DNA of 64,000 nucleotides from contig OZ244129.1 of the NCBI GenBank assembly GCA_965215715.1, positions 1,364,994 to 1,428,993 on the forward strand. The letters run 5' to 3'. This document shows, piece by piece, positions 13,415-42,034 of the stretch. The notes beneath the pieces were generated by a model. It searched no databases, was not told the DNA's origin, and saw only the letters and a list, made by a program, of their open reading frames with translations. A program made the position numbers and the translations under genes. The stretch's first letter is position 1, and each line of letters begins with the position of its first letter. The stretch is from Hyphomicrobiales bacterium. Lineage in GTDB: Bacteria; Pseudomonadota; Alphaproteobacteria; Rhizobiales; HXMU1428-3.

Positions 13415-14581
13415 TTAAGCAATTTCAGCCTTTGCCGCAGCAAACGCCCAGTCAAGCCAAGGGGTTAAAGCTTGCAAGTCACTTGCTTCAACCGTTGCGC
13501 CTGCCCAAATGCGAAGACCGGCTGGTGCATCACGGTAGGAGCCAATGTCAAGAGCGACCCCTTCTTCATCCAGCAGTTTCACAATTCGTTTGGCGAAGGC
13601 TGCTTGGGCATCAGGTTCCAGTGCCACAATGTCTGCATCAACAATTTTCAAACAAACAGATGTGTTGGATGCAATTTCAGGGCGAACTGCCAAATTGGCC
13701 ACCCAGTCTGCGGCCTCCATCCAGTCATTGAGGGTTTTTGCATTGGCATCTGCGCGTGCTTTCATGGCGCTCAGGCCACCTATTTTCTCAGCCCATTGCA
13801 ACCCATCGACATAGTCTTCCAAAGCCAACATTGAGGGGGTATTGATTGTTGCCCCTTCAAAAATGCCTTTAATGATTTTGCCGCCTTTGGTGAGGCGGAA
13901 GATTTTGGGCATTGGCCAGGCTGGTGTATAGCTTTCTAACCGGGCAACTGCGCGCGGTGATAAAACCAACATGCCGTGCTGGCCTTCGCCGCCCATAACC
14001 TTTTGCCAAGAGTAAGTGAGCACATCGACTTTGTCCCAGGCGATGTCTTGGGCAAAAACGGCTGAGGTGGCATCTACCAATGTTAGCCCTTCGCGGTCAC
14101 TGGCGATCCAATCCCCATTCGGCACTTTCACGCCAGAGGTGGTGCCATTCCAGGTGAAGACAACATCTTTAGAAAAATCAACCGTGCTCAGGTCTGGTAA
14201 ATCGCCATAGTCGGCTTCTAGAACCCGCACATCCTCAAGTTTTAGCTGCTTGGTAATGTCTGTGACCCAGCCCTTGCCAAAGCTTTCCCAGGCCAAAACA
14301 TCAACGCCGCGCTCACCTAGCAGTGACCACATTGCTGCTTCAAATGCGCCTGTGTCAGAGGCGGGCATAATGCCCACCAAATAATCTTCAGGGATGCCTA
14401 AAATCTGCTTGGTTTTATCTATTGCCAATTTAAGGCGTGCTTTACCAACGCCAGAGCGGTGTGAACGCCCCAAGACTGCATCTTTTAAAGCTTCAAGAGA
14501 GTAACCTGGCCGTTTTGAACAAGGGCCAGATGAAAAATGCGCGTTGTCCGGGCGCGCTGCCGGTTTGTTTAGATCTGTCAT
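13415..14581 (-). CDS. serC: Phosphoserine aminotransferase
   Basis: [42 protein letters not shown] (alphaproteobacterial SerC type). Confidence 0.97.
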
Positions 14582-14630
14582 GATCTATCCTTCCAGATAG
14601 TTGCCTCTCGTTGGGGAGAGGTGTCCCACC
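14582..14630 (-). ncRNA. serC leader cis-regulatory RNA
   Basis: Minus strand GGUGGGACACCUCUCCCCAACGAGAGGCAACUAUCUGGAAGGAUAGAUC immediately before the serC ATG. Two hairpins, the second (CUAUCU-GGAA-GGAUAG) covering the SD. Matches my recollection of the alphaproteobacterial serC motif. Confidence 0.8.
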
Positions 14631-14685
14631 TGTGCGTTTATGTGAGTTAGGAAGAGAAGTCAATAGATCAAAAGGTGGAAGAATT

Positions 14686-18473: not shown

Positions 18474-20411
18474 TTATCCTTGCGGCTGCGGTTCCATGCC
18501 GCCTGAAGGCTCTTCACCGCCATCTTTTTTAGGCTTTGTTTTTCCTGCCATTGGCACAACGGACGGGGCGCCGCCAGAGGTTTGATCTGGCTCATCCCGG
18601 CTTGGCGGTTTGCCTGCTAGCAAATCTGTTACCTCTTGGCCTGACAAAGTCTCATATTCCAACAAGCCTTTGGCAAGGGTGTGCAAGTCATCGATCTTTT
18701 CTTGCAAGATGCGTTTTGCGGTTTGCTCACCGCCATCGATTAGCGCGCGCACTTCCTCATCAACCAATTTGGCTGTTTCTTCAGAAATGTTCACTGACTG
18801 GGTGACTGAATGACCAAGAAACACTTCTTGCTCATTGTTGGTGTAAAGCACCCGGCCAAGTTTTTCTGACATGCCCCATTCCATTATCATGGCACGGGCC
18901 AAACTGGTCGCTTGCTGAATGTCGCCTGTGGCGCCATTGGTCACTTTTTCAGGGCCAAAGATTAGCAATTCAGCTTCCCGGCCACCAAAGACGGAAGCCA
19001 GACGCGAGATGCAATATTGCTTGGTGTAACTTAACCGGTCAGCTTCAGGCAAATTCATGGTCACGCCAAGTGCGCGGCCGCGCGGGATAATCGTCACCTT
19101 ATGCAAGGGGTCATGATCTGGCATATTCAAGCCAACAATGGCATGGCCCGCTTCGTGATAAGCGGTTAGTTTTTTCTCATCTTCGGTCATCACCATGGAA
19201 CGACGCTCTGCGCCCATCATGACCTTATCTTTGGCATCTTCAAATTCTTGCTGCGTGACCATGCGCATAGAGCGGCGCGCGGCCAACAAAGCGGCTTCAT
19301 TGACAAGGTTTGCAAGGTCAGCCCCTGAGAACCCTGGGGTGCCGCGGGCAACAACTTTCAAATCAACATTGGGGGCAAGCGGTGTTTTGGCTGCATGCAC
19401 CCGCAAGATTTTTTCCCGGCCAACCACATCTGGGCGCGGCACCACCACTTGGCGGTCAAAGCGGCCTGGACGCAATAAAGCTGGGTCCAAGACATCTGGA
19501 CGGTTGGTGGCTGCAATTAGGATGATGCTTTCATTGGCTTCAAAGCCATCCATTTCAACCAATAGCTGGTTTAAGGTTTGCTCGCGCTCATCATTGCCCC
19601 CGCCAAGACCGGCACCGCGGTGGCGACCAACGGCATCAATCTCGTCAATAAAGATAATACACGGGGCATTGCGTTTGGCTTGCTCGAACATATCGCGCAC
19701 ACGGCTGGCACCGACACCGACAAACATTTCAACAAAGTCAGAACCAGAAATTGTGAAAAACGGCACATTGGCTTCACCAGCAATGGCGCGGGCCAATAAA
19801 GTTTTACCCGTGCCTGGAGGGCCAACAAGCAATGCGCCGTGCGGGATGCGGCCGCCCAAACGCTGAAACTTTTGAGGATCGCGTAAATATTCAACAATTT
19901 CTTCGAGATCTTCTTTGGCCTCATCAACGCCGGCCACATCTTCAAATGTCACCCGGCCTTGATGCTCGGTTAACAGCTTGGCCTTTGATTTGCCAAAGCC
20001 CATGGCCCGGCCGCCGCCGCCTTGCATTTGGCGCATAAAGAAAATCCACACGGCAATGAGCAAGAACACCGGCAAAAGAGTGGTGAACAGAATATTGAAA
20101 AAGGAGTTGGACTCATCTTCAGGCGGCTTGGCTGTGATTTTCACGCCTTTACCTTGCAGCTTATTGACCAGAGCAGGATCATCAGGTGCGTAAGAGCTAA
20201 ATTTCGTATCATCAGAAAAGGTACCGGTTACTTTTTGCCCGGCAATGGTCACCTCTTTAATGTTGCCTGATTCCACCTCTTGCATCAGCTCAGAATAGCT
20301 AATCTGAGAAGCTTTGGTGTTATTTTGCGCGCTTTGGATCATATTGAACAAAGCCATGAGCAACAAAAGAATAACCACCCAAACGGCAAAATTGCGAAAA
20401 TGCGAATTCAT
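18474..20411 (-). CDS. ftsH: ATP-dependent zinc metalloprotease FtsH
   Basis: Two TM segments, [17 protein letters not shown] region, HEAGH. Confidence 0.99.
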
Positions 20412-20806
20412 AAAAATGTCCTGTTCCTAAAGGTCCCAAATCACAGCGTTTCAGACCTTTTCACTCATGTTTTTTTGGGGTCTTGTTTCATAAGGGAAAA
20501 ATCTTAATCAATTGCCCCTTTATCGACCATTCACTAAAAATGATCTGCCTATACCTTTATCCGTAACATAGGGTGTCCCTTATAGCTTGCCAAGGCCCAT
20601 TTCCAAACAATGTCTGCTGAAAGACCCTAATTAAGGCATAATTAGTGCCAAACAAGGCCAAGCTAAGTCGGAAAGTCTTGATAATGGTAAAATCCTCTTG
20701 TTTTTCCCCAAAATAGGTCGCCAAACAATCATAATCAGGCTTAAAAGGCAAGCCATGACAAATCTCAATGGTAAAGAGATTGTGATCAATCTGGGTCAGA
20801 CTTGGC

Positions 20807-22159
20807 CTATGATTGTATCGGAAAGACAGCCGTAACGTTCATTTTCTCTAGGGCACAGTCTTTAGGTCCTAAAGCTTGTGAAAATAGGCGTTCATCTTTT
20901 GCGCCCAATTGAGGGATTGCGAGCAATTGTCGCGCTTTATCAGCCCGCCAAATTGTTGCCAGGCCTGACATAACATCGCGGCTGAAGGGGCAGTCTTGCT
21001 CGTGTTGGTGATAAAATGATTGCACTTGCTCAATCTCTTGCTCATTCAATGCACGGATTGACAAAGCCTCTTTTATTGGCGCCGCAAAATATAAGCCAAC
21101 CCTGTGATCCCACAAGACCTGACTGTCATGATCGGTAATTGGATCAAGATGGATCTCTTCCAGCTCATCGCGGCCAGTTTCGCGATAAAATAAAAACTCT
21201 TCGTGGGCTGTTTTCTCAATCATCACCCCGCCCAAAGCAAAGCGGGCCTTGGGGGTGCTTTTATCCTTTGCCATTGTTAGCAAGTGCTTGGCACCGCGTT
21301 CTAACTTAGAGAGCTGAACCTGCCCTTGCCCGAAAGTGTGTAACGCGCGCTGCAAAACCATTGTTTGCATGGCATGGGGAAGTTTGAGAAAAGCTGCCTT
21401 GTTCACCCCCAAGTGTCCCTCTAAATGACAGGTAACTTCAAGAGCAAAAAAATTTTCAGTCCAAACCTCTAGTGCTTTACGTGTCCCTTGCAAACGGCGC
21501 GCGCTTTCAGCTATGCCATGTGAAAGTTCCCCTGTCTCATCTAGCTGGCCCAACAGCTTGCGCACTTTGACCCGCTCAAAGCCGTCATCTTGATTGCTCG
21601 GATCATCGCACCATTTCAGATCGCGCTCTTGCAACCAGTTCAGTAAATCTTGTTTTCTAACCTCTAAGAGAGGGCGCACAAACGTGACCCCATACAGTTC
21701 CCGTTTGGGTAAGATGCCCGCAAGGCCTTCAACACCGCTTCCGCGCTTTATGCGCATTAAGAACGTCTCGGCTTGATCATCTCTAGTATGGGCTGTCAGC
21801 AACGTATCGACAGCTCTTTCTTTCATAAGGACTGTCATGGCCTCATATCGGGCCACCCTTGCCTTTTGTTGAACACCAGCTTTACCTTGCAAACCTTCTA
21901 GCTTAATAGGCACAGTTTCAAACCCCAATTGGTTTGCTGTCTTGATCACAAAGGCAACTTCATCTGCTGCTTCTTTGCGCAAGCCATGGTCAACGCTCAA
22001 GACCAGATCTTTTTGGCTCGTTTTTAAAGGATGATTTTGCCGCCATAGGGCAAATAAATGCAGCATCGCCATGCTGTCTGGCCCGCCAGAGACAGCCAAA
22101 GCGACAGGTTGGTTGGGACCGTCAAGTGAATTAAAATTATCTAACAAAGAGCTCGTCAT
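20807..22159 (-). CDS. tilS: tRNA(Ile)-lysidine synthetase
   Basis: AVSGGPDSMA, VDHGLR, ARVARY, TAHTRDDQAET, RPLL, DDPSN. Confidence 0.97.
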   Translation of the reverse strand: MTSSLLDNFNSLDGPNQPVALAVSGGPDSMAMLHLFALWRQNHPLKTSQKDLVLSVDHGLRKEAADEVAFVIKTANQLGFETVPIKLEGLQGKAGVQQKARVARYEAMTVLMKERAVDTLLTAHTRDDQAETFLMRIKRGSGVEGLAGILPKRELYGVTFVRPLLEVRKQDLLNWLQERDLKWCDDPSNQDDGFERVKVRKLLGQLDETGELSHGIAESARRLQGTRKALEVWTENFFALEVTCHLEGHLGVNKAAFLKLPHAMQTMVLQRALHTFGQGQVQLSKLERGAKHLLTMAKDKSTPKARFALGGVMIEKTAHEEFLFYRETGRDELEEIHLDPITDHDSQVLWDHRVGLYFAAPIKEALSIRALNEQEIEQVQSFYHQHEQDCPFSRDVMSGLATIWRADKARQLLAIPQLGAKDERLFSQALGPKDCALEKMNVTAVFPIQS

Positions 22160-22224
22160 GGGCGAACGCTAGCCTGAGAGCCTCCATGATGCAAGCCCCA
22201 TTAGGCAACCAGACCCACTCAAAA

Positions 22225-24819
22225 TTATTGCATTCTTAGTGCGATAAACCTGACATTGTCTCCAGTTTCAACAAGAAACAAAACCGCTTTGCGCCCTTTA
22301 TCTTTGACCAGCTTAACTTGTGCGTTCAAATGTTCTATTGATTTGACCTCAACACCGTTTACTTCAGTAATAACGTCACCACTTTTAATGCCCCTTTTCT
22401 CAGCCATTCCTGAGACTGAGACAACCTCTAGCCCTTTTGCACGTCCTCTTGGCTTTAATTTCATGCCAAAGGTTCTTATAGGACCAACCCTTATTTTGTC
22501 AAAAAAGTCGTCAAAAACTTTAAATGCGGGATCAAGCTTGGTATTTTTTATACCGCTCAGCGCTTTAATTGCTGAGACCGTATCAGCTCCAAATTGACCA
22601 TCAATCGTGCCCTTATAGAGCCCTTCATTTTTCAAGGCTTTTTGTAATTCTTTTCTGAAACCTTTGTTCCAGAGGTCTGACTTTTTCGTCATTTGCTCTA
22701 TAGCAAAGCTGTTTTTCTTTTTAAGTGACTTTGCAACCCAATTTGCAGCTTGGGCATAATCCTTGGTAACGCCATCTCCATTATTATACAGCACGCCAAT
22801 ATTATACATGGCATGTGAATGCCCCTTGTCAGCAGCTTTACGATACCAATTTAGGGCCTGGTTATAATCTCGTGGTACCCCTTGACCGTTATCATAAGCG
22901 TAACCTAATGAGAACATGGCATCATCATAGTCCTTGTTTGCAGATTTGCGAAACCAACTTACAGATTTTGAGAGATCCTTCTCAACACCTCTGCCAAATT
23001 TATAAAGTTGACCCAAATTACTCATGGCATATTGATTACCTTTTTCAGCTGCCCTTTCGTACCAGTCGTGGGCGATCAGATAATCTTTGGCCACGCCTTG
23101 TCCATTTTCATAAAGTGTACCAACCGAATTCATGGCTGAAGCATTACCATTGGCCGCCGATTTTTTATACCATTCAAGTGATTTGTTATAATCTTTCTCC
23201 ACCCCTTGCCCATAATAGTACATATGGCCAAGCTGATACATGGCAACAGCATCTCCTTTATCAGCCCCTTTACGAAACCAATTGGCCGCTTGGAACAAAT
23301 CCTTCGTCACCTCAGTGCCGAACTTGTAAGCAAACCCAAGCTTATTAAACGCATCACTATGACCGTTTTCTCCAGACTTTTGATACCAATTGATTGCCTT
23401 GTTAAAGTCTTTCTCAATCCCTCGTCCATAGTGGTAAGCTTCTGCCACTTGTTTCATAGCTTCGGCATCTCCGCTAAGGGCGGCTTTTTGAAACCCTTGA
23501 AAGCGTGTATAAAACGAACTAAGGGTAACATTCACTGTTCGGCTTTTCTGATTGCGCACAATATTTATTTTTACGTTTTTCCCTTCCCCTTCAGCCGCAA
23601 TCAAACGTGCGAGATCTCGCATTGTATCTACTTTTTTGTTCCCAACCTGAGTAATGATATCACCGGCAAGCAAACCTGCTGGCAAGGCTGGACCATCTTT
23701 AGCCAGTGAAACGATTAACACGCCTGTCTTACCACCATTGTCTGAGGCATTTTGTATGTTTACACCAAGCCAACCTCTACGTTCTTTTCCATCGCGCCTA
23801 ACTTTAGGCGGGCTAACAAGGGCAAGCTGAGCACTTTTCAAACGTTGCAATTCCAGTTTAGCCAATGAGGAATGGCGCCCATCGGGGTGCTCTTTTAAAT
23901 AGAATTCAAATTCAGAGGCATTTTGAGAATTTTTAATCTTCTCCCACAATGTCTCTGCAGCGGTTAATTTTTTATCTGCCGGAGGGGTGACTTTGGGTGC
24001 CTCTTGTGTTTTAAGCTCCGTTTTATGTTCCTTTGTCTTGGGAACGAGATAATATTCTCCGCGCACTTGGTCGTAAAAAGCGGGAAATTGCTTGTGGCGG
24101 TCTTGGCTGGTCAACGCCAATTGCTCCACTTCAACTTGCAACTGTTTGGCCATTTTCACATGTGAAAGCCCTGGTGTTTTTAAAAGGGGTAAGAGTTTAC
24201 GTGTGAACACCGAATTGGGGTTGGTGTCACCCTCACTTAACCGATCCAGAGCTTCTTGGCCGATGCCGGCTGAATACATCACAAATGTATTGTCCGGTGG
24301 GTTTTGTCGGTAGTCCAGCCCCACAGAGCGCCCCACAGAGCGGGTTCCCTTTTTAGGAAACGGGTTGTTGCGGCAAGCATCAATAATCAAAATGCTCACC
24401 TTGGCGCCCTTTTCGCGCAAAATGTCAATGATCTCGTCTTCTGAAAACGCTTCTTTGGTTACAGAGCGTTCCTGGCCTGGTTTGATTTTGGGAATATCGG
24501 TTGGCAATAAATAATTTTGGCCTTTAACGGAGATGCCATGGCCTGCAAAGAAAAATAGCACTTCATCACCGGCACTAATGCTATCTGCCAGCCTGTCGAG
24601 CTGGTGGTTCATTCCTTTGCGATCAACGTTCACCTGGCTAATTACTTGAAAGCCAATATCACGTGCAGCTTTGGCAACAGCCTTTGCGTCATTTACCGCT
24701 TTTTCAAGTTTGGAGACATGATCATACGCATCGTTGCCAATTACCAAAGCCACCCGTTTAGCATGAGCCGCATTGATGAAACTTACAAGAAGCACAAAGC
24801 ACAGCAAAAAATGACGCAT
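22225..24819 (-). CDS. Exported caspase-family (peptidase C14) protein with PDZ, seven Sel1 repeats, PG-binding module and second PDZ
   Basis: Signal peptide; RVALVIGNDAY, FFFAGHG (His), IIDACRNNP (Cys); RGWLGVNIQ PDZ; 7 x 36-aa Sel1 repeats; LQKALKNEGLYKGTIDGQFGADT; C-terminal GIKSGDVITEVNG PDZ. Confidence 0.88.
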   Translation of the reverse strand: MRHFLLCFVLLVSFINAAHAKRVALVIGNDAYDHVSKLEKAVNDAKAVAKAARDIGFQVISQVNVDRKGMNHQLDRLADSISAGDEVLFFFAGHGISVKGQNYLLPTDIPKIKPGQERSVTKEAFSEDEIIDILREKGAKVSILIIDACRNNPFPKKGTRSVGRSVGLDYRQNPPDNTFVMYSAGIGQEALDRLSEGDTNPNSVFTRKLLPLLKTPGLSHVKMAKQLQVEVEQLALTSQDRHKQFPAFYDQVRGEYYLVPKTKEHKTELKTQEAPKVTPPADKKLTAAETLWEKIKNSQNASEFEFYLKEHPDGRHSSLAKLELQRLKSAQLALVSPPKVRRDGKERRGWLGVNIQNASDNGGKTGVLIVSLAKDGPALPAGLLAGDIITQVGNKKVDTMRDLARLIAAEGEGKNVKINIVRNQKSRTVNVTLSSFYTRFQGFQKAALSGDAEAMKQVAEAYHYGRGIEKDFNKAINWYQKSGENGHSDAFNKLGFAYKFGTEVTKDLFQAANWFRKGADKGDAVAMYQLGHMYYYGQGVEKDYNKSLEWYKKSAANGNASAMNSVGTLYENGQGVAKDYLIAHDWYERAAEKGNQYAMSNLGQLYKFGRGVEKDLSKSVSWFRKSANKDYDDAMFSLGYAYDNGQGVPRDYNQALNWYRKAADKGHSHAMYNIGVLYNNGDGVTKDYAQAANWVAKSLKKKNSFAIEQMTKKSDLWNKGFRKELQKALKNEGLYKGTIDGQFGADTVSAIKALSGIKNTKLDPAFKVFDDFFDKIRVGPIRTFGMKLKPRGRAKGLEVVSVSGMAEKRGIKSGDVITEVNGVEVKSIEHLNAQVKLVKDKGRKAVLFLVETGDNVRFIALRMQ

Positions 24820-24946
24820 TGTTCAGCCCTCCCAAATCATTCCTGATGGTTCAAAACTATACCAATGAAAAATTTATGAGGGAAGAGTTGAAATATTAAA
24901 GATTTTTAAGGTTATGAATGGGCTCTGCTTGAAAAGCCTAACTAGT

Positions 24947-25762
24947 TTAGCAGCCAGCCTTGCCAATTTCGGCACCAACTTTTCGATCAATATGACCTGG
25001 CAAGGATTTGTACTTGGACTTTAATTCACTAAACGTCTGACAAGCGGCTTCATTTTGGCCCAGCCGGTGCAGCGACATGCCCAGTTTCAAAAGGTTGTCA
25101 GGGGCTTTGGGGCTTTTGCGATAGGTTTGATACCCTTTTAAGAACTCATTGGCTGCTTGGCGATAATTGCCGCGCACAAAGTAAACCTCACCCAACCAAT
25201 ATTGCGCATTGCCGGATAGATTATTGTTTGGGTAGTTGGACAAAAATGCTCTGAAGGTTGCCTCAGCGGAGGTGTAATCGCTGGACAACATATAATTGTA
25301 GCCAGCATCATATAGCGATTGGGGGCTCTTACCATTTAAGGTCACACGGCTTTTGGGCGGTGTTGCATTGAGTGCTAAATCAGCACCGGGCACTTCTGTG
25401 GGGGGAACCTCATTGATAGAAGATTGCGTGTCAGCCCCCCAACCATCTGTTTGGAATTCAGGCTGCTCTTCTAATCGTCTTTGGTTTAATGGTTGGCGCT
25501 CTGCTTCAAATTGATAGCTTTTTTTAACGCCAACAGCGGGCTGAACGCTGCCCTTTTTCACCAATGTTTGTAAAGCACCGATCACAGATTGCATCTCAAC
25601 AATCTGGGCTTCAAGACGGTCTATGCGTTGCAGGGCTTCAATTAACTCTTGAGATTGTTTTTGGGCGACTGGACCTTTTGGTTTTTTGGCCTCTTGGCCA
25701 ATAGCAGGCCCGGTTATGCTTAACATCAACCCAATGAACAAACACCCCAATAATCTGGTCAT
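24947..25762 (-). CDS. cpoB: Tol-Pal system protein YbgF/CpoB
   Basis: Signal peptide, coiled coil, TPR with NAQYWLGEVYF and KAPDNLLKLGMSL; downstream of pal. Confidence 0.95.
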   Translation of the reverse strand: MTRLLGCLFIGLMLSITGPAIGQEAKKPKGPVAQKQSQELIEALQRIDRLEAQIVEMQSVIGALQTLVKKGSVQPAVGVKKSYQFEAERQPLNQRRLEEQPEFQTDGWGADTQSSINEVPPTEVPGADLALNATPPKSRVTLNGKSPQSLYDAGYNYMLSSDYTSAEATFRAFLSNYPNNNLSGNAQYWLGEVYFVRGNYRQAANEFLKGYQTYRKSPKAPDNLLKLGMSLHRLGQNEAACQTFSELKSKYKSLPGHIDRKVGAEIGKAGC

Positions 25763-25823
25763 GATTTTTGCCTTGTTTTTATTTTTTCACCCGCGCAGAA
25801 AAGCCTTTGAGCTTAAGGCCCTC

Positions 25824-26294
25824 TTAATAGCTGGCCCCGCTGTTCAGCCGTGTTTCTACCCGCCGGTTTTGTGACCAACAGCTAATGTCATTACAAACTG
25901 CAACCGGGCGCTCCTTACCATAAGAGATTGTACGCAGCCGCGTTGGGCTAATGCCGTTGGAAATTAAAAAGTTCTTCACTGTCTCAGCCCGGCGCCCGCC
26001 TAGTGCCAGGTTATATTCACGCGTGCCGCGCTCATCAGCGTGGCCTTCCAAAGTGACAGTGTAGTTTGAATATTTGTTCAACCATTGTACCTGGCCACGC
26101 AAAATAGATAAAGCCTGTTCGGTTAACTGCACGCTGTCAGTGGTAAAGTGCACCGTTGTGCCCACATTTACTGCGAAATCTTGTGGGCTGCCTGGCTTTG
26201 TGGGCTTACCTGTTAGGCTCTTATTTACATTGCTGCACCCAACGACAAAAATTGCCAGAAAACAGATGAGAGAGACTTTAAATATTTGAGACAT
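25824..26294 (-). CDS. pal: Peptidoglycan-associated lipoprotein
   Basis: Lipobox VVGC; EGHADERGTREYNLALGGRRA; SYGKERP. Confidence 0.97.
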   Translation of the reverse strand: MSQIFKVSLICFLAIFVVGCSNVNKSLTGKPTKPGSPQDFAVNVGTTVHFTTDSVQLTEQALSILRGQVQWLNKYSNYTVTLEGHADERGTREYNLALGGRRAETVKNFLISNGISPTRLRTISYGKERPVAVCNDISCWSQNRRVETRLNSGASY

Positions 26295-26576
26295 TTTTTA
26301 GTAAGCCTAAACGTTAAAAGTTGGACGCCGGTACACCTTCATTACGAGTGATTTAGAACAACCGCATATATGAGCCAAGGGCTACAAAGACCATGCCATA
26401 AACACTTAACGATTGCACTTATTTTCATGCCGCGTAACTAAGGCAATATAGTGTCTAAAATCAAGAATTAAGAATGGCTAGCCACGGTTTTAAAGCTAGT
26501 GCTCTTACATTTGCATCGTTAAAAGACACGAATCAATAAGCCATTACTTAGATTTTAAATCAAAAATCTATGAGCT

Positions 26577-26617
26577 AAAAATAAAAATCGTGCTGCACGC
26601 AAAGCGTACAACACGAC
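26577..26617 (-). terminator. Intrinsic terminator downstream of the twin small lipoprotein genes
   Basis: Minus strand GUCGUGUUGUACGC-UUU-GCGUGCAGCACGAU: a 14-bp stem fully paired only on the minus strand (three G-U pairs), followed by UUUUAUUUUU. Confidence 0.85.
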
Positions 26618-26672
26618 TTTTAACTCGTGAGAAGCCGAATAAGCTTCAAAGAAACAAAGTCACTAATTAAAA

Positions 26673-26813
26673 TTAGCGAACTGCTTGTTCAACTGGAGCA
26701 ATGTCACCACCTAGTTTCATAGGCTCGTGACGTACTTCACGGCGGCAAGCACCTAGTGCAGCAACAGTTCCAACGATAGTAGCAGCGATGATAAGACCTT
26801 TAATTCCTTTCAT
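26673..26813 (-). CDS. Small lipoprotein, copy 1 (46 aa, not in ORF track)
   Basis: Manual translation: MKGIKGLIIAATIVGTVAALGACRREVRHEPMKLGGDIAPVEQAVR*. Lipobox LGAC; upstream GAAGGGGGAAAGAGG RBS. Confidence 0.88.
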   Translation of the reverse strand: MKGIKGLIIAATIVGTVAALGACRREVRHEPMKLGGDIAPVEQAVR

Positions 26814-26909
26814 CCTCTTTCCCCCTTCAGGTTAAGTTTGGATCACAATGATCCGGTTAAAAAAACGAATAAAGCACACATTGATGAATAAACACCAAAG
26901 AATGAGCCC

Positions 26910-27047
26910 TTAGCGAGCAATTTGTTCCTGGACCACATCACCACCCAGTTTCATGGGTTCGTGACGTACTTCACGACGACAGGCACTAATAGATGCGATA
27001 ACACCCACAAGAACGCTGACAACAAACACACGCTTAAAAAACTGCAT
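26910..27047 (-). CDS. Small lipoprotein, copy 2 (45 aa, not in ORF track)
   Basis: Manual translation: MQFFKRVFVVSVLVGVIASISACRREVRHEPMKLGGDVVQEQIAR*. Lipobox ISAC; upstream GAGGAG RBS. Confidence 0.88.
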   Translation of the reverse strand: MQFFKRVFVVSVLVGVIASISACRREVRHEPMKLGGDVVQEQIAR

Positions 27048-27275
27048 TTTGTACTCCTCAAGACGTTTTACGAGCAGTGCATATATCCGAATTACCGGCG
27101 ATACATGACAAGATCAAGAACTGAAATGGCTAAACCACATCTTTTCACCAATTATGATGCTAAAAAGACACGAAAAACCAGATGTCATCCTTTTGTTCTT
27201 AAAATTAATTCACAGCTCGCAAACAATCTCTCCAATACAATTGGATCATATATAAAAAGGCAATAAATTTACTAA

Positions 27276-38032: not shown

Positions 38033-38154
38033 GTCACATTCCTGCTTATATTGAATGGGCCTGCTTACAATGATCTGGCCGATATACAATGAATGGGCTT
38101 ACATATAGCAAACCGGCAAACTTGGTCTTTTAAAAAGATACTATTCATTAAAAT

Positions 38155-38312
38155 GCAGAGCCACAAATGCCGTCGGTAAGAGCTTATCCCTGGATCCCTA
38201 CATGTGTAGGTGGGCACCGAGTAATTAAGACCACGGTCTCAATCAGGGTCAGTTCCCGAGAAAAACTTATAGGCCCCGGGAAAAAGAAACCTAACAAACA
38301 TTGCAGCCCTGC
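38155..38312 (-). ncRNA. ssrS: 6S RNA
   Basis: Upstream of ygfA. Terminal stem GCAGGGCUGCA/UGUGGCUCUGC, central CCCGGGGCCUAUAAG and GGGAACUGACCCUG..GACCGUGGUC..GGUGCCCACCU segments typical of alphaproteobacterial 6S; about 158 nt. Confidence 0.88.
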
Positions 38313-40397: not shown

Positions 40398-41051
40398 ATG
40401 TCAGACCACCTCCCTATTCCCCAATTGTACTTCATTCTCGATCTGGCTCGATCTGGCGATCCTCTGCGCGAGATTGAAGCGGCTCTACAAGTTACCCCGA
40501 TCGCCTCCCTTTTAATCAAAGACACACCGCAAACTGATATTGCCCAAGATTTGGTTAAAGCTTTGCAAGCTCACAATATTGCCGTTCTTCTTGAGGATAG
40601 TGACAAAGTAAGGGCTCTTAAGGCAGATGGCGTTCACTTAAACACAGATGAACCTTGCGACTTTGAGCAGGTAAAACAACGAATTGATGACAATGACATC
40701 ATTGGGGTTAGCCCGCAATCGTCTCGCCATGGCGCTATGACCATTGCAGAACAAGGGGCAAGTTACATTGCCATTGAGGCGAGGGGTTCCAACACAAATG
40801 ATGAAAACGAACAACAAATGATGGATGAAAACCAATTAGCCCCGACCATAGACTGGTGGGTGGCCCTATTTGAAACCCCGTGTGTTGCTTGGCATATTGA
40901 GACCATTGAGGCTGCTTTAACAGCGCAGCAAATGGGGGCTGATTTTCTGGCCCTTGCTCCTACATATTGGCAACAAGGGCAAAACACATTTGACGTCATC
41001 CAAGAGTTACAAACTGCATTGACCGAAAACGCAATAGAACAAAATAATTGA
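40398..41051 (+). CDS. Thiamine-phosphate synthase (TMP-TENI) family, degenerate paralog
   Basis: KADGVHL, IIGVS...SRHGAMTIAEQGASYIA, GADFLAL; canonical QxRxK/ND/TxTK motifs are not recognisable. Confidence 0.65.
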   Translation: MSDHLPIPQLYFILDLARSGDPLREIEAALQVTPIASLLIKDTPQTDIAQDLVKALQAHNIAVLLEDSDKVRALKADGVHLNTDEPCDFEQVKQRIDDNDIIGVSPQSSRHGAMTIAEQGASYIAIEARGSNTNDENEQQMMDENQLAPTIDWWVALFETPCVAWHIETIEAALTAQQMGADFLALAPTYWQQGQNTFDVIQELQTALTENAIEQNN

Positions 41052-42034
41052 AAATTTTCATGACCAGCGCTCTTCTTTATAAGCCAAGCTTTAAACACCT
41101 GTTGTTATTGATGTTCGTAACAACAAGCCTCTTCATGTGTCCGCTCACCTTGCTTGCAGAAAAAGGGCAAGCTGAAAAGAAAGCGGCACCGGCTTTGGGT
41201 GAACAGGCTTATCTTGCCTTTGAAGAAGGCAAGTATTTAACGGCTCTTAAATTAGCCAAGCAGGCGGCGAAGAAGGGGCAAGTGAATGCCTATACGCTCA
41301 TTGGGCGCATTTACGCTGGCGGGCTAGGCGTGCCCAAAGATATGAAAGTGGCGGCCCAGTGGTATGAAAAGGCGGCTGAAAGAGACGATGTTCATGCTCT
41401 GGTTGCCTTGGGTCGTCAATACGCTTTAGGCGAAGGGGTCAAACGCGTTCCGATGAAGGCTGCGAACCTTTTTGAAAAAGCAGCCATTAAGGGTGAACCA
41501 CAGGCCCAATACAACCTTGCCTTAATCTACGCCAATGGCAATGGGCGCAAAACAGACCTGTATGAAGCCTTTAAATGGATGCAAAAGGCCGCCCAAAACG
41601 ACCTTGCCGTTGCCCAGTATAATCTGGGAACCCTTTATGCCATAGGGCGCGGCACCCAAAAAGATTTAACAAAAGCGGCCCTTTGGACTGGCAAAGCCGC
41701 CAGAGCGGGGCTTTCGGACGCTGAGCTGGATTATGCCATCATGCTGTTTAAAGGGCGCGGGGTGGAAAAGGATGTTAAGGCGTCTTTTCGCTTTTTTAGA
41801 AGCAGTGCTTTTAAAGGCAACCCGGTGGCGCAAAACCGGCTGGCCCGCCTTTATGCCTATGGCATCGGCACTGAACCAGACCCGGTGGAAGCTGCCAAAT
41901 GGCACATGATCGCCCGCCAAGCCGGGGTGAGCGATATAAAGATGGATTTGTTTATCGTCAATCTGCCAAAAGATATGAAGCAAAAAGCTCAGGCAAAGGT
42001 CGATGAGTTACAAGGAACCAATGGGCTTTACTAA
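41048..42034 (+). CDS. Exported Sel1-repeat protein
   Basis: Signal peptide and about six Sel1 repeats (e.g. AQYNLALIYANGNGRKTDLYEAFKWMQKAA). Confidence 0.92.
   Translation: MKIFMTSALLYKPSFKHLLLLMFVTTSLFMCPLTLLAEKGQAEKKAAPALGEQAYLAFEEGKYLTALKLAKQAAKKGQVNAYTLIGRIYAGGLGVPKDMKVAAQWYEKAAERDDVHALVALGRQYALGEGVKRVPMKAANLFEKAAIKGEPQAQYNLALIYANGNGRKTDLYEAFKWMQKAAQNDLAVAQYNLGTLYAIGRGTQKDLTKAALWTGKAARAGLSDAELDYAIMLFKGRGVEKDVKASFRFFRSSAFKGNPVAQNRLARLYAYGIGTEPDPVEAAKWHMIARQAGVSDIKMDLFIVNLPKDMKQKAQAKVDELQGTNGLY

What the first reader, a model, noticed from the sequence alone, without database searches (positions are those of the whole stretch)
22225..24819. Exported caspase-PDZ-Sel1x7-PG-binding-PDZ protease inserted between cpoB and tilS
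Seen: cleavable signal peptide, intact His (FAGHG) and Cys (DACR) dyad, a DegP-like PDZ, seven 36-aa Sel1 repeats, a peptidoglycan-binding-like helix pair and a second PDZ. Codons look more AT-rich than the neighbours. Established: cpoB-tilS-ftsH are normally contiguous in alphaproteobacteria, and PDZ domains gate periplasmic proteases by sensing exposed C-termini. Inference: a periplasmic, wall-anchored caspase-like protease activated by misfolded outer-membrane protein termini and co-oriented with tol-pal. Periplasmic caspase signalling is essentially uncharacterised.
Basis: partly seen in the sequence, partly recalled or inferred. Interest (0 to 1): 0.7.

Follow-up and report, generated by a model that had tools for sequence, protein, structure and literature searches.

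The report
Exported caspase-like protease in tol-pal cluster
A marine alphaproteobacterium carries, wedged into its conserved cell-envelope gene cluster, a real and probably active exported caspase-type protease with cell-wall-anchoring and partner-binding modules; it belongs to a large, catalogued but never-tested bacterial family, so this is an interesting variant rather than a new kind of system.

Summary
ORF 22225-24819(-) encodes 864 aa: a Sec-type signal peptide, a Peptidase_C14 domain, a three-helix linker with no Pfam family, an HtrA-type PDZ, seven Sel1 repeats, a partial PG_binding_1 and a second PDZ. His94 and Cys149 align with the MALT1 catalytic dyad and are invariant in 78 homologues. 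An AlphaFold model (pLDDT 88) matches MALT1 and caspases. Asp at Cys-2 predicts Arg/Lys specificity, not Asp, so it is orthocaspase/metacaspase-like.

cpoB abuts tilS in seven other alphaproteobacterial lineages. In this clade the slot holds exported C14 genes with a conserved protease domain but different C-termini: the long form with 7 or 8 Sel1 repeats, a 428-aa form, and a tandem pseudo-C14/C14 form. So the insertion is old, and composition is unremarkable (z = -1.4). A 1.2-kb recombination tract (dS 0.64 vs 0.11) spans the gene's 3' third and the tilS start.

Most family members lack PDZ and sit at unrelated loci, so DegS-like gating by OMP C-termini is unsupported. The best reading is an envelope-resident, wall-tethered, basic-specific protease targeted by interchangeable C-terminal modules. 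It is a new variant of a known, uncharacterised kind.

The parts
24827..24833 (-). Shine-Dalgarno GGGAGGG, 7 nt before the ATG
   Evidence: Read directly from the sequence.
24760..24819 (-). Sec-type signal peptide, aa 1-20 (MRHFLLCFVLLVSFINAAHA|K); no lipobox
   Evidence: Hydrophobic core with hydropathy 3.16 and an AHA motif; the same leader type occurs in 93 of 95 homologues. Heuristic, not a trained predictor.
24058..24759 (-). Peptidase_C14 (caspase-fold) domain, aa 21-254; His94 (24538-24540), Cys149 (24373-24375), Asp147 and Asp44 as S1-pocket candidates
   Evidence: Pfam 115 bits; MALT1 alignment; invariant columns; AF2 pLDDT mostly >90; Foldseek MALT1 E 2.8e-18, then caspases 6/7/9/11.
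24313..24345 (-). Disordered loop aa 159-169 (GTRSVGRSVGL) after the catalytic Cys; candidate autoprocessing site at the conserved Arg160
   Evidence: pLDDT <50; G158 and R160 nearly invariant, G163 and G167 invariant. Autoprocessing is an inference by analogy with caspase and orthocaspase intersubunit linkers.
23818..23961 (-). Conserved three-helix linker motif aa 287-334 (W..I..S.....F..YL...P.G.....A...L); no Pfam family
   Evidence: Helices 287-295, 301-310 and 317-334 with pLDDT >90; no Pfam hit; blastp-detectable in 55 of 123 family members, including FGE-sulfatase fusions.
23521..23787 (-). PDZ1, HtrA/DegP-type, aa 345-433, with a GWLGV carboxylate-binding-loop motif
   Evidence: PDZ_2 63 bits; TIGR02037 DegP profile positions 227-329; PDB DegP-like PDZ hits.
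22705..23511 (-). Seven Sel1 repeats (36 aa / 108 nt each), aa 437-705
   Evidence: Pfam 7 stretches, E 1.7e-65; 108-nt DNA periodicity; PDB Sel1 proteins 4bwr and 6ok3, E ~1e-80. The orthologue P0002 has 8 repeats.
22561..22656 (-). Partial PG_binding_1 (helix pair with the DGxFGxxT motif), aa 722-753
   Evidence: 32.5 bits, cutoff 23, profile positions 5-36 of 57; AF2 pLDDT 88-93; blastp-detectable in 74 of 123 family members.
22228..22482 (-). C-terminal PDZ2, aa 780-864 (TFGM loop)
   Evidence: PF00595 38.2 bits stand-alone; RseP, Ctp and Trx7 PDZ profile hits. The AF2 model is poor (pLDDT 33-73, only 3 covering sequences). Found only in the window clade and in P0038.
22000..23215 (-). About 1.2-kb recombination tract relative to the 87% orthologue: begins at the Sel1 indel, covers the gene's 3' third, the 65-bp spacer and ~150 nt of tilS
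   Evidence: DNA identity 77-86% inside versus 91-99% outside; dS 0.643 for codons 536-864 versus 0.108 for codons 1-535; flanking genes 0.11-0.29; dN/dS 0.17.
24947..25762 (-). cpoB/ybgF, upstream neighbour (127-bp spacer, no terminator-like site)
   Evidence: TIGR02795 123.6 bits, cutoff 90.1; terminator scan.
20807..22159 (-). tilS, downstream neighbour (65-bp spacer), followed by ftsH 18474-20411
   Evidence: TIGR02432 166.9 bits; ORF list.

Best explanation
The gene encodes a Sec-exported, envelope-resident cysteine endopeptidase of the caspase fold (Peptidase C14, orthocaspase/metacaspase-like). It most likely cuts after Arg or Lys. The constant, strongly conserved part is the signal peptide plus the C14 domain, usually followed by a three-helix linker. 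The C-terminal part (PDZ1, seven Sel1 repeats, a PG-binding-type helix pair, PDZ2) is an interchangeable targeting and retention cassette: the PG-binding module would hold the enzyme at the sacculus, while the Sel1 solenoid and the two PDZ domains would recruit partner or substrate proteins, with the PDZs binding C-termini. The gene is embedded in tolQRAB-pal-cpoB-X-tilS-ftsH on the same strand with no terminator-like site, so it is probably co-transcribed with envelope and division genes and acts in processing or turnover of envelope proteins. Shown here: the ORF, the domain composition, the catalytic residues and fold, a family-wide leader peptide, the synteny and its history, and purifying selection on both halves. 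Inferred: periplasmic location, activity, basic P1 specificity, autoprocessing in the Arg-containing loop 159-169, PG binding, co-transcription and the physiological substrates.
For: Architecture. The dyad aligns with MALT1 H415/C464, with D44 = D365 and D147 = D462; H94, C149, D147 and D44 are invariant in 78 sequences. AF2 model pLDDT 88.2, with top Foldseek hits to MALT1 (E 2.8e-18) and caspases. A leader with a hydrophobic core (most with an AxA-type end) occurs in 93 of 95 homologues. The C14 domain is 72-80% identical in proteins whose C-termini are entirely different (FGE-sulfatase, tandem C14, unknown domain), and 75% identical in the L085 slot occupant although TilS is only 51% identical. 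Slot occupants have three different architectures. dN/dS is 0.09 in the N-terminal part and 0.17 in the C-terminal part. No terminator-like site lies in either spacer, and in L089 the C14 gene overlaps the tilS start by 4 bp. Orthocaspases cleave after basic residues (PMC6426788). A periplasmic repeat plus PG-binding module has a precedent in alphaproteobacterial PodJ (PMC9684454), and a Sel1-repeat protein, RgsF, belongs to the Tol-Pal/Rgs network in Sinorhizobium (PMC7327166).
Against: There is no experimental or transcript evidence: the RNA runs hold nothing from this locus. The signal peptide was judged heuristically. The PG_binding_1 match is partial, with the third helix missing. The PDZ2 model is unreliable and its fold search is not significant. 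Family members with the same domain order sit at loci unrelated to tol-pal, so the link to Tol-Pal/CpoB could simply be inherited position. Periplasmic location cannot be told apart from surface or extracellular location.
Confidence: 0.6

Rival explanations
1. One reading: a DegS-like envelope-stress sensor. PDZ1 and/or PDZ2 keep the caspase domain inactive until exposed C-termini of misfolded outer-membrane proteins bind, which starts a periplasmic proteolytic signalling cascade linked to Tol-Pal.
For: PDZ1 is of the HtrA type, follows the protease domain as in DegS/DegP, and keeps a GWLGV carboxylate-binding-loop motif. The gene sits in an envelope cluster.
Against: PDZ occurs in only about 9-12 of 120 family members. 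The slot occupants L085 and L089 keep the C14 domain but have no PDZ. PDZ-bearing homologues are not next to tol-pal. There is no anti-sigma or RseA/RseP-type partner nearby. PDZ domains in periplasmic proteases also serve as substrate tethers (DegP, Prc) or size filters (RseP), which the data cannot tell apart from gating.
Confidence: 0.12
2. A secreted or surface-exposed effector that acts on other organisms (an algal host, competitors or prey). The Sel1 repeats would act as host-interaction modules, and the PG-binding module would bind foreign cell wall.
For: The sequence occurs in seawater and algae-associated metagenomes. There is rapid C-terminal module turnover, Sel1 copy-number variation and a recombination tract. 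The family is multi-paralogous, with P0048 on the same contig. Sel1 proteins of pathogens act on hosts (cited in PMC7327166).
Against: No secretion-system genes adjoin it, and it sits inside a housekeeping envelope operon. dN/dS of 0.17 indicates purifying rather than diversifying selection. An HtrA-type PDZ and PG_binding_1 are typical of a periplasmic protein.
Confidence: 0.15
3. A cell-death or anti-phage defence caspase like the cytoplasmic bacterial caspase-like proteases (EACC1-associated, gasdermin-activating, CHAT types), or a catalytically dead scaffold.
For: Generic caspase-domain similarity to a PADLOC 'caspase' model (45 bits, partial) and to NF047832 (51.8 bits).
Against: NF047832 scores far below its cutoff of 140. 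There are no defence partner genes. An export signal removes the protein from cytoplasmic targets. The dyad is intact and invariant, so it is not a pseudo-enzyme.
Confidence: 0.04

Closest known systems
Bacterial orthocaspases / prokaryotic metacaspase-like C14 proteins (surveys PMC3501461 and PMC6426788; biochemically characterised example MaOC1 of Microcystis, from my own knowledge)
   Same: C14 p20-type domain with a His-Cys dyad, and Asp in the S1 pocket predicting Arg/Lys specificity. Alphaproteobacteria are the richest group. Fusions to Sel1 (6% of sequences), PG-binding (1.6%) and FGE-sulfatase, N-terminal 'TM helices' that are probably signal peptides, and tandem or pseudo variants are all catalogued.
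   Different: PDZ fusions are not mentioned in the main text of the 2012 survey. The double-PDZ form is restricted to this clade plus one other protein. No exported alphaproteobacterial member has been studied. The fixed position in the tol-pal cluster, with C-terminal turnover, is described here.
MALT1 paracaspase (best sequence and structure match among solved structures)
   Same: Same fold (Foldseek E 2.8e-18; TM 0.77 normalised to 3v4o_A). The His, the Cys and two S1 Asp residues align.
   Different: About 20% identity. No death domain or Ig domains. Exported and bacterial. It is not a paracaspase by architecture.
HtrA-family periplasmic proteases (DegP/DegQ/DegS)
   Same: A protease domain followed by one or two PDZ domains in the periplasm; PDZ1 matches the DegP PDZ1 profile.
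   Different: The catalytic domain is a clan CD cysteine protease, not a trypsin-like serine protease. Sel1 and PG-binding modules are inserted between the PDZs. PDZ is not conserved across the C14 family.
Periplasmic repeat plus PG-binding modules of alphaproteobacteria (PodJ C-terminus; Sel1 proteins RgsF and ExoR)
   Same: A TPR/Sel1-type solenoid followed by a PG-binding domain in the periplasm (PMC9684454). A Sel1 protein is linked to the Tol-Pal growth-zone network (PMC7327166).
   Different: Those proteins have no protease domain. Homology beyond the shared repeat type was not tested.

Membership tests
Peptidase C14 (clan CD, caspase fold) | Match to PF00656 above the gathering score | tested here: met
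   115 bits versus cutoff 21.4, profile positions 1-230 of 233.
Peptidase C14 (clan CD, caspase fold) | Catalytic His and Cys in the canonical motifs and positions | tested here: met
   FFAGH94G and IIDAC149RN align with MALT1 H415 and C464; invariant in 78 sequences.
Peptidase C14 (clan CD, caspase fold) | Caspase/hemoglobinase alpha/beta fold | tested here: met
   AF2 pLDDT 88.2; Foldseek MALT1 E 2.8e-18, caspases 6/7/9/11 at about 1e-11. Dyad geometry could not be measured because no coordinates are returned.
Peptidase C14 (clan CD, caspase fold) | Proteolytic activity dependent on the Cys | not testable with these tools
   Needs purified protein and a C149A control.
Orthocaspase / metacaspase-like (basic P1 specificity) | Acidic S1 pocket: Asp at Cys-2 and Asp equivalent to MALT1 D365 | tested here: met
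   D147 and D44 are aligned and invariant. That these residues form the MALT1 S1 pocket comes from my own knowledge.
Orthocaspase / metacaspase-like (basic P1 specificity) | Absence of a recognisable p10 domain (orthocaspase as defined in PMC6426788) | tested here: inconclusive
   The Pfam C14 profile is covered almost end to end, and the fold aligns over about 245 columns with the MALT1 caspase domain. The authors' p10 model was not available.
Orthocaspase / metacaspase-like (basic P1 specificity) | Cleavage after Arg/Lys | not testable with these tools
   Requires a substrate assay.
True caspases (C14A, Asp-specific) | QACxG pentapeptide (Gln at Cys-2) and a basic S1 pocket | tested here: not met
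   The motif is DACRN, and the Asp is invariant.
Paracaspase (MALT1-type) | Death domain and Ig-like domains flanking the caspase-like domain | tested here: not met
   No such Pfam hits; a signal peptide lies directly before the domain.
HtrA/DegS-type PDZ-gated stress-sensor protease | Trypsin-like (S1C) catalytic domain | tested here: not met
   Only the PDZ part of the DegP/DegS profiles matches (aa 338-436).
HtrA/DegS-type PDZ-gated stress-sensor protease | HtrA-type PDZ after the protease domain with a carboxylate-binding loop | tested here: met
   TIGR02037 profile positions 227-329; GWLGV motif.
HtrA/DegS-type PDZ-gated stress-sensor protease | PDZ conserved as an integral part of the protease family | tested here: not met
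   PDZ occurs in about 9-12 of 120 homologues and is absent from the syntenic occupants L085 and L089.
HtrA/DegS-type PDZ-gated stress-sensor protease | Allosteric activation by OMP C-terminal peptides | not testable with these tools
   Requires a biochemical assay.
Sel1-like repeat proteins | Tandem 36-aa Sel1 repeats above the Pfam threshold | tested here: met
   7 repeats, 215.6 bits versus 30.7; PDB Sel1 proteins at E ~1e-80.
PG_binding_1 domain proteins | Complete three-helix PG_binding_1 domain | tested here: inconclusive
   Above the cutoff (32.5 versus 23), but only profile positions 5-36 of 57 match. The AF2 third helix has low confidence, and the fold search is not significant.
PG_binding_1 domain proteins | Binding to peptidoglycan | not testable with these tools
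   Requires a sacculus pull-down.
Defence-associated bacterial caspases (EACC1-type and similar) | Score above the family cutoff and association with defence partner genes | tested here: not met
   NF047832 scores 51.8 versus 140; PADLOC gives only a generic partial hit; the neighbours are tol-pal, tilS and ftsH.

The most novel reading that the evidence does not exclude
The exported C14 protease kept in the cpoB-tilS slot is a dedicated component of the Tol-Pal/CpoB envelope-division machinery in this marine clade. It would be a wall-tethered, Arg/Lys-specific caspase-type enzyme that processes or releases envelope proteins at the sacculus, for example PG-linked outer-membrane proteins, or the tiny Arg-terminated lipoproteins encoded in the same cluster. 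Its swappable PDZ/Sel1 cassettes would set the substrate choice. That would be the first defined physiological role for a periplasmic caspase homologue.
Probability: 0.1. Interest if true: 0.8.

Novelty: new variant of a known kind. Interest (0 to 1): 0.45.

Why it matters
Alphaproteobacteria hold the largest share of bacterial caspase homologues (28% of true orthocaspases, PMC6426788), and they are the proposed source of eukaryotic caspases. Even so, no exported member has a known substrate or role. This locus is a tractable entry point. It has an intact enzyme, a clear export signal, a wall-anchoring module and two peptide-binding PDZ domains. It also comes with a natural comparative series in one chromosomal slot (empty, C14-only, tandem C14, and the long form with 7 or 8 Sel1 repeats) that separates the constant protease from its variable targeting modules. 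If the enzyme is active in the periplasm, it would add a clan CD cysteine protease to an envelope proteostasis toolkit so far known mainly through serine and metalloproteases. If not, it remains one more uncharacterised domain shuffle.

Tried and rejected
1. Transcript evidence for cpoB-X-tilS read-through. RNA-labelled runs of the same species label contain nothing from 20000-27000, not even ftsH, so this was uninformative.
2. Structural test of the PG-binding and PDZ2 region. The model is good only for the helix pair, and the fold search has no hit below E 0.096. I relied on profile scores instead.
3. Recent horizontal transfer or a mobile element. Composition is within the window's range, there are no convincing flanking repeats, and the slot is occupied in distant relatives. 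Rejected.
4. The idea that the 3' divergence from P0002 reflects relaxed or positive selection. Rejected: dS itself is about 6-fold higher, the tract runs into tilS, and dN/dS is 0.17, so this is recombination.
5. Defence-system membership. Rejected.
6. Naming the organism. The reference-genome scan found no same-species genome; the closest is a Hyphomicrobiaceae MAG with TilS 75% identical, on a contig too short to show the slot.
7. Context of the same-genome paralogue P0048. It is not on record.
8. P0007, one of the closest C14 domains. It has no cpoB or tilS beside it on its 5-kb contig.
9. Literature searches for a characterised exported, PDZ-bearing bacterial caspase homologue found none.
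Full report
**1. The observation**

The minus-strand ORF 22225-24819 (864 aa, ATG start) is real. It is preceded by a GGGAGGG Shine-Dalgarno sequence 7 nt upstream.

- Peptidase_C14, aa 21-254: 115 bits against a cutoff of 21.4.
- PDZ1, aa 345-433: 63 bits on its own.
- Seven Sel1 repeats: E 1.7e-65.
- PG_binding_1, aa 722-753: 32.5 bits on its own against a cutoff of 23, but covering only profile positions 5-36 of 57.
- PDZ2, around aa 785-842: 38 bits on its own.

The 36-aa Sel1 period shows up as a 108-nt DNA periodicity. The neighbours are cpoB/ybgF and tilS by curated equivalog models. The whole run tolQ/R/A/B-pal-cpoB-X-tilS-ftsH-folP-glmM lies on one strand.

**2. Catalytic competence and fold**

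In an alignment to MALT1 that is ungapped between β1 and the catalytic His (the only gaps lie between His and Cys), FFAGH94G lies on YYAGH415G and IIDAC149RN lies on LLDMC464RK. By position, D44 corresponds to MALT1 D365 and D147 to D462. H94, C149, D147 and D44 are invariant across 78 family members.

An AlphaFold2 model of aa 1-345 has mean pLDDT 88.2. Its best structural matches are MALT1 (E 2.8e-18) and then caspases 6, 7, 9 and 11. The refutation test of a misplaced dyad is therefore not met at the level of sequence and fold. The geometry itself could not be measured.

Asp at Cys-2, where true caspases have the Gln of QACxG, is the hallmark of para-, meta- and orthocaspases, which cleave after basic residues (PMC6426788). 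I therefore predict Arg/Lys specificity. 'Caspase' is accurate for the fold but not for the specificity.

The only disordered stretch inside the domain is aa 159-169 (GTRSVGRSVGL). It directly follows the catalytic Cys strand and contains the nearly invariant R160. By analogy with intersubunit linkers it is a candidate autoprocessing site. That is an inference.

**3. Export**

No trained predictor was available. The leader MRHFLLCFVLLVSFINAAHA|K has a basic n-region, a core with hydropathy 3.16 and an AHA motif, with no lipobox Cys. Among 95 homologues with a 15-45-residue leader, 93 have a comparable hydrophobic core, typically ending in an AxA-like motif immediately before the first β-strand of the C14 domain. 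Export thus looks like a family trait. The 2012 survey had already suspected that the N-terminal 'TM helices' of such proteins are signal peptides (PMC3501461).

**4. The slot between cpoB and tilS**

In six reference alphaproteobacterial loci (Stappia, Sphingomonas, Rhizorhabdus and MAGs), cpoB directly abuts tilS, which is followed by ftsH.

Relatives fall into a graded series by marker identity to the window:

| Locus | TilS identity to window | Slot content |
|---|---|---|
| L001 | 85% | Same long protein with 8 Sel1 repeats |
| L084 | 75% | Same long architecture, 8 Sel1 repeats, PG-binding, PDZ2 (cut by contig end) |
| L083 | 73% | Same long architecture, 8 Sel1 repeats, PG-binding, PDZ2 (cut by contig end) |
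| L085/L086 | 51% | 428-aa protein: signal peptide, C14, then an unknown ~150-aa Cys-containing domain |
| L089 | 50% | 759-aa protein: signal peptide, degenerate C14 (Cys to Thr), active C14, linker, then the same unknown domain; overlaps the tilS start by 4 bp |
| L087/L088 | 45% | Empty: cpoB, 69 bp, tilS |

The insertion is therefore real relative to the class, but it is old and clade-wide. What has been kept is an exported active C14 domain, which is 75% identical between the window and L085 although TilS is only 51% identical. The C-terminus has been replaced at least twice.

Composition agrees with an old insertion. The gene has GC 0.437 and GC3 0.407, lower than its immediate neighbours (0.47-0.51). 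It is only the 5th lowest of 41 long ORFs in the window (z = -1.4), and the C14 part is at 0.473. No flanking repeats suggest a mobile element.

**5. A recombination tract**

Against the 87% orthologue, codons 1-535 have dS 0.108, like pal (0.106), ftsH (0.135) and tolB (0.144). Codons 536-864 have dS 0.643 with dN/dS 0.17.

The low-identity block (77-86%) begins exactly at the one-repeat Sel1 indel (~23215). It runs through the stop codon and the 65-bp spacer and ends about 150 nt inside tilS (~22000). This is the signature of homologous import from a more divergent lineage that also has the X-tilS junction. It is not decay. Both halves are under purifying selection.

**6. The wider family**

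The search returned 3924 proteins at E <= 1e-10. The first ~340 aa (C14 plus linker) recur at 50-67% identity, and the C14 domain alone at 72-80%, fused to Sel1 repeats, PG_binding_1, FGE-sulfatase, WD40/TPR or a second C14.
- Sel1 is detectable in 96 of 123 proteins, and the PG-binding module in 74.
- PDZ1 is detectable in only about 9-12.
- PDZ2 is found only in the window clade and in P0038.

Homologues with the same C14-PDZ-Sel1-PGB order, at about 43% identity, lie beside thiC/metallo-β-lactamase-fold genes or hydrogenase genes, not tol-pal. The same genome carries at least one paralogue, P0048.

The surveys list Sel1, PG-binding and FGE-sulfatase fusions and tandem or pseudo variants. 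The main text of the 2012 survey does not mention PDZ. Searches for a characterised exported or PDZ-bearing bacterial caspase homologue found none.

**7. Mechanism**

The best-supported reading is an envelope-resident, wall-tethered, basic-specific cysteine endopeptidase. Its interchangeable C-terminal cassette sets location and partners: PG-binding for retention, and the Sel1 solenoid and PDZ domains for protein and C-terminus recognition. It is probably co-transcribed with cpoB and tilS-ftsH, because neither spacer has a terminator-like site. A TGGTATAGT extended -10-like motif at 24856-24864(-) may add a promoter of its own; that is my reading and is untested.

There are precedents for periplasmic repeat plus PG-binding modules (PodJ, PMC9684454) and for a Sel1 protein in the Tol-Pal growth-zone network (RgsF, PMC7327166) in alphaproteobacteria. 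These are leads, not tests.

It is not favoured, because the PDZ is dispensable in syntenic orthologues and in most of the family, and no signalling partner is nearby. The defence/PCD and pseudo-enzyme readings are disfavoured. A secreted-effector role cannot be excluded.

**8. Verdict**

This is a new variant (double PDZ, fixed in the tol-pal cluster) of a known, catalogued but functionally uncharacterised kind. Interest is moderate. The comparative series in one slot and the clean domain logic make it a good experimental entry point, but nothing here goes beyond domain shuffling on a known scaffold.

Noticed in passing
window 26673-26813(-) and 26910-27047(-), within the ~980-bp AT-rich tolB-pal gap (26295-27275): Two paralogous tiny lipoprotein-like ORFs (46 and 45 aa). 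Each has a lipobox (LGAC / ISAC), and the mature peptide starts CRREVRHEPMKLGGD and ends in Arg. A 19-bp-stem terminator-like hairpin follows at 26622-26582(-). Small genes of 39-48 aa are called in the same gap in L001, L085-L089.
   Followed up: partly
window 41048-42034(+): A second exported Sel1-repeat protein (328 aa, hydrophobic N-terminal leader), about 32-34% identical to the Sel1 region of the caspase-like protein. It may be an RgsF/ExoR-type periplasmic Sel1 protein.
   Followed up: no
window 38154-38312(-) and 14580-14631(-): 6S/SsrS RNA (84 bits) and a serC leader (73.6 bits), both above the Rfam gathering scores. No tRNA genes anywhere in the 64 kb.
   Followed up: no
window ~20720-20940: A second short low-identity block (78-81%) against the 87% relative, at the 3' end of tilS and the tilS-ftsH spacer, between segments at 92-96% identity. 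It may be another recombination patch or an unconstrained segment.
   Followed up: no
L085:4643-5929 (C-terminal ~170 aa) and L089:4094-6373 (C-terminal ~150 aa): The slot occupants in two relatives share an unannotated Cys-containing C-terminal domain (...EHxEFxHEVYKxxGVxKxGLxRSTFxSCEGCVPIxIYC...) with no Pfam match.
   Followed up: no
P0005, P0007, P0013 (L089, L090): Tandem C14 proteins in which one copy keeps the His but has lost the Cys (DTIR, DADN, DSDR) beside an intact copy. These are exported active/pseudo-caspase pairs within a single polypeptide.
   Followed up: partly
window 23818-23961(-), aa 287-334: A confidently modelled three-helix motif after the C14 domain with no Pfam family. 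It is detectable in 55 of 123 family members whatever C-terminal fusion follows.
   Followed up: partly
L085 7483-13386: In the lineage with TilS 51% identical, tilS is followed not by ftsH but by a fasciclin-domain gene and a two-component system, so the otherwise stable cpoB-tilS-ftsH block is broken there.
   Followed up: no
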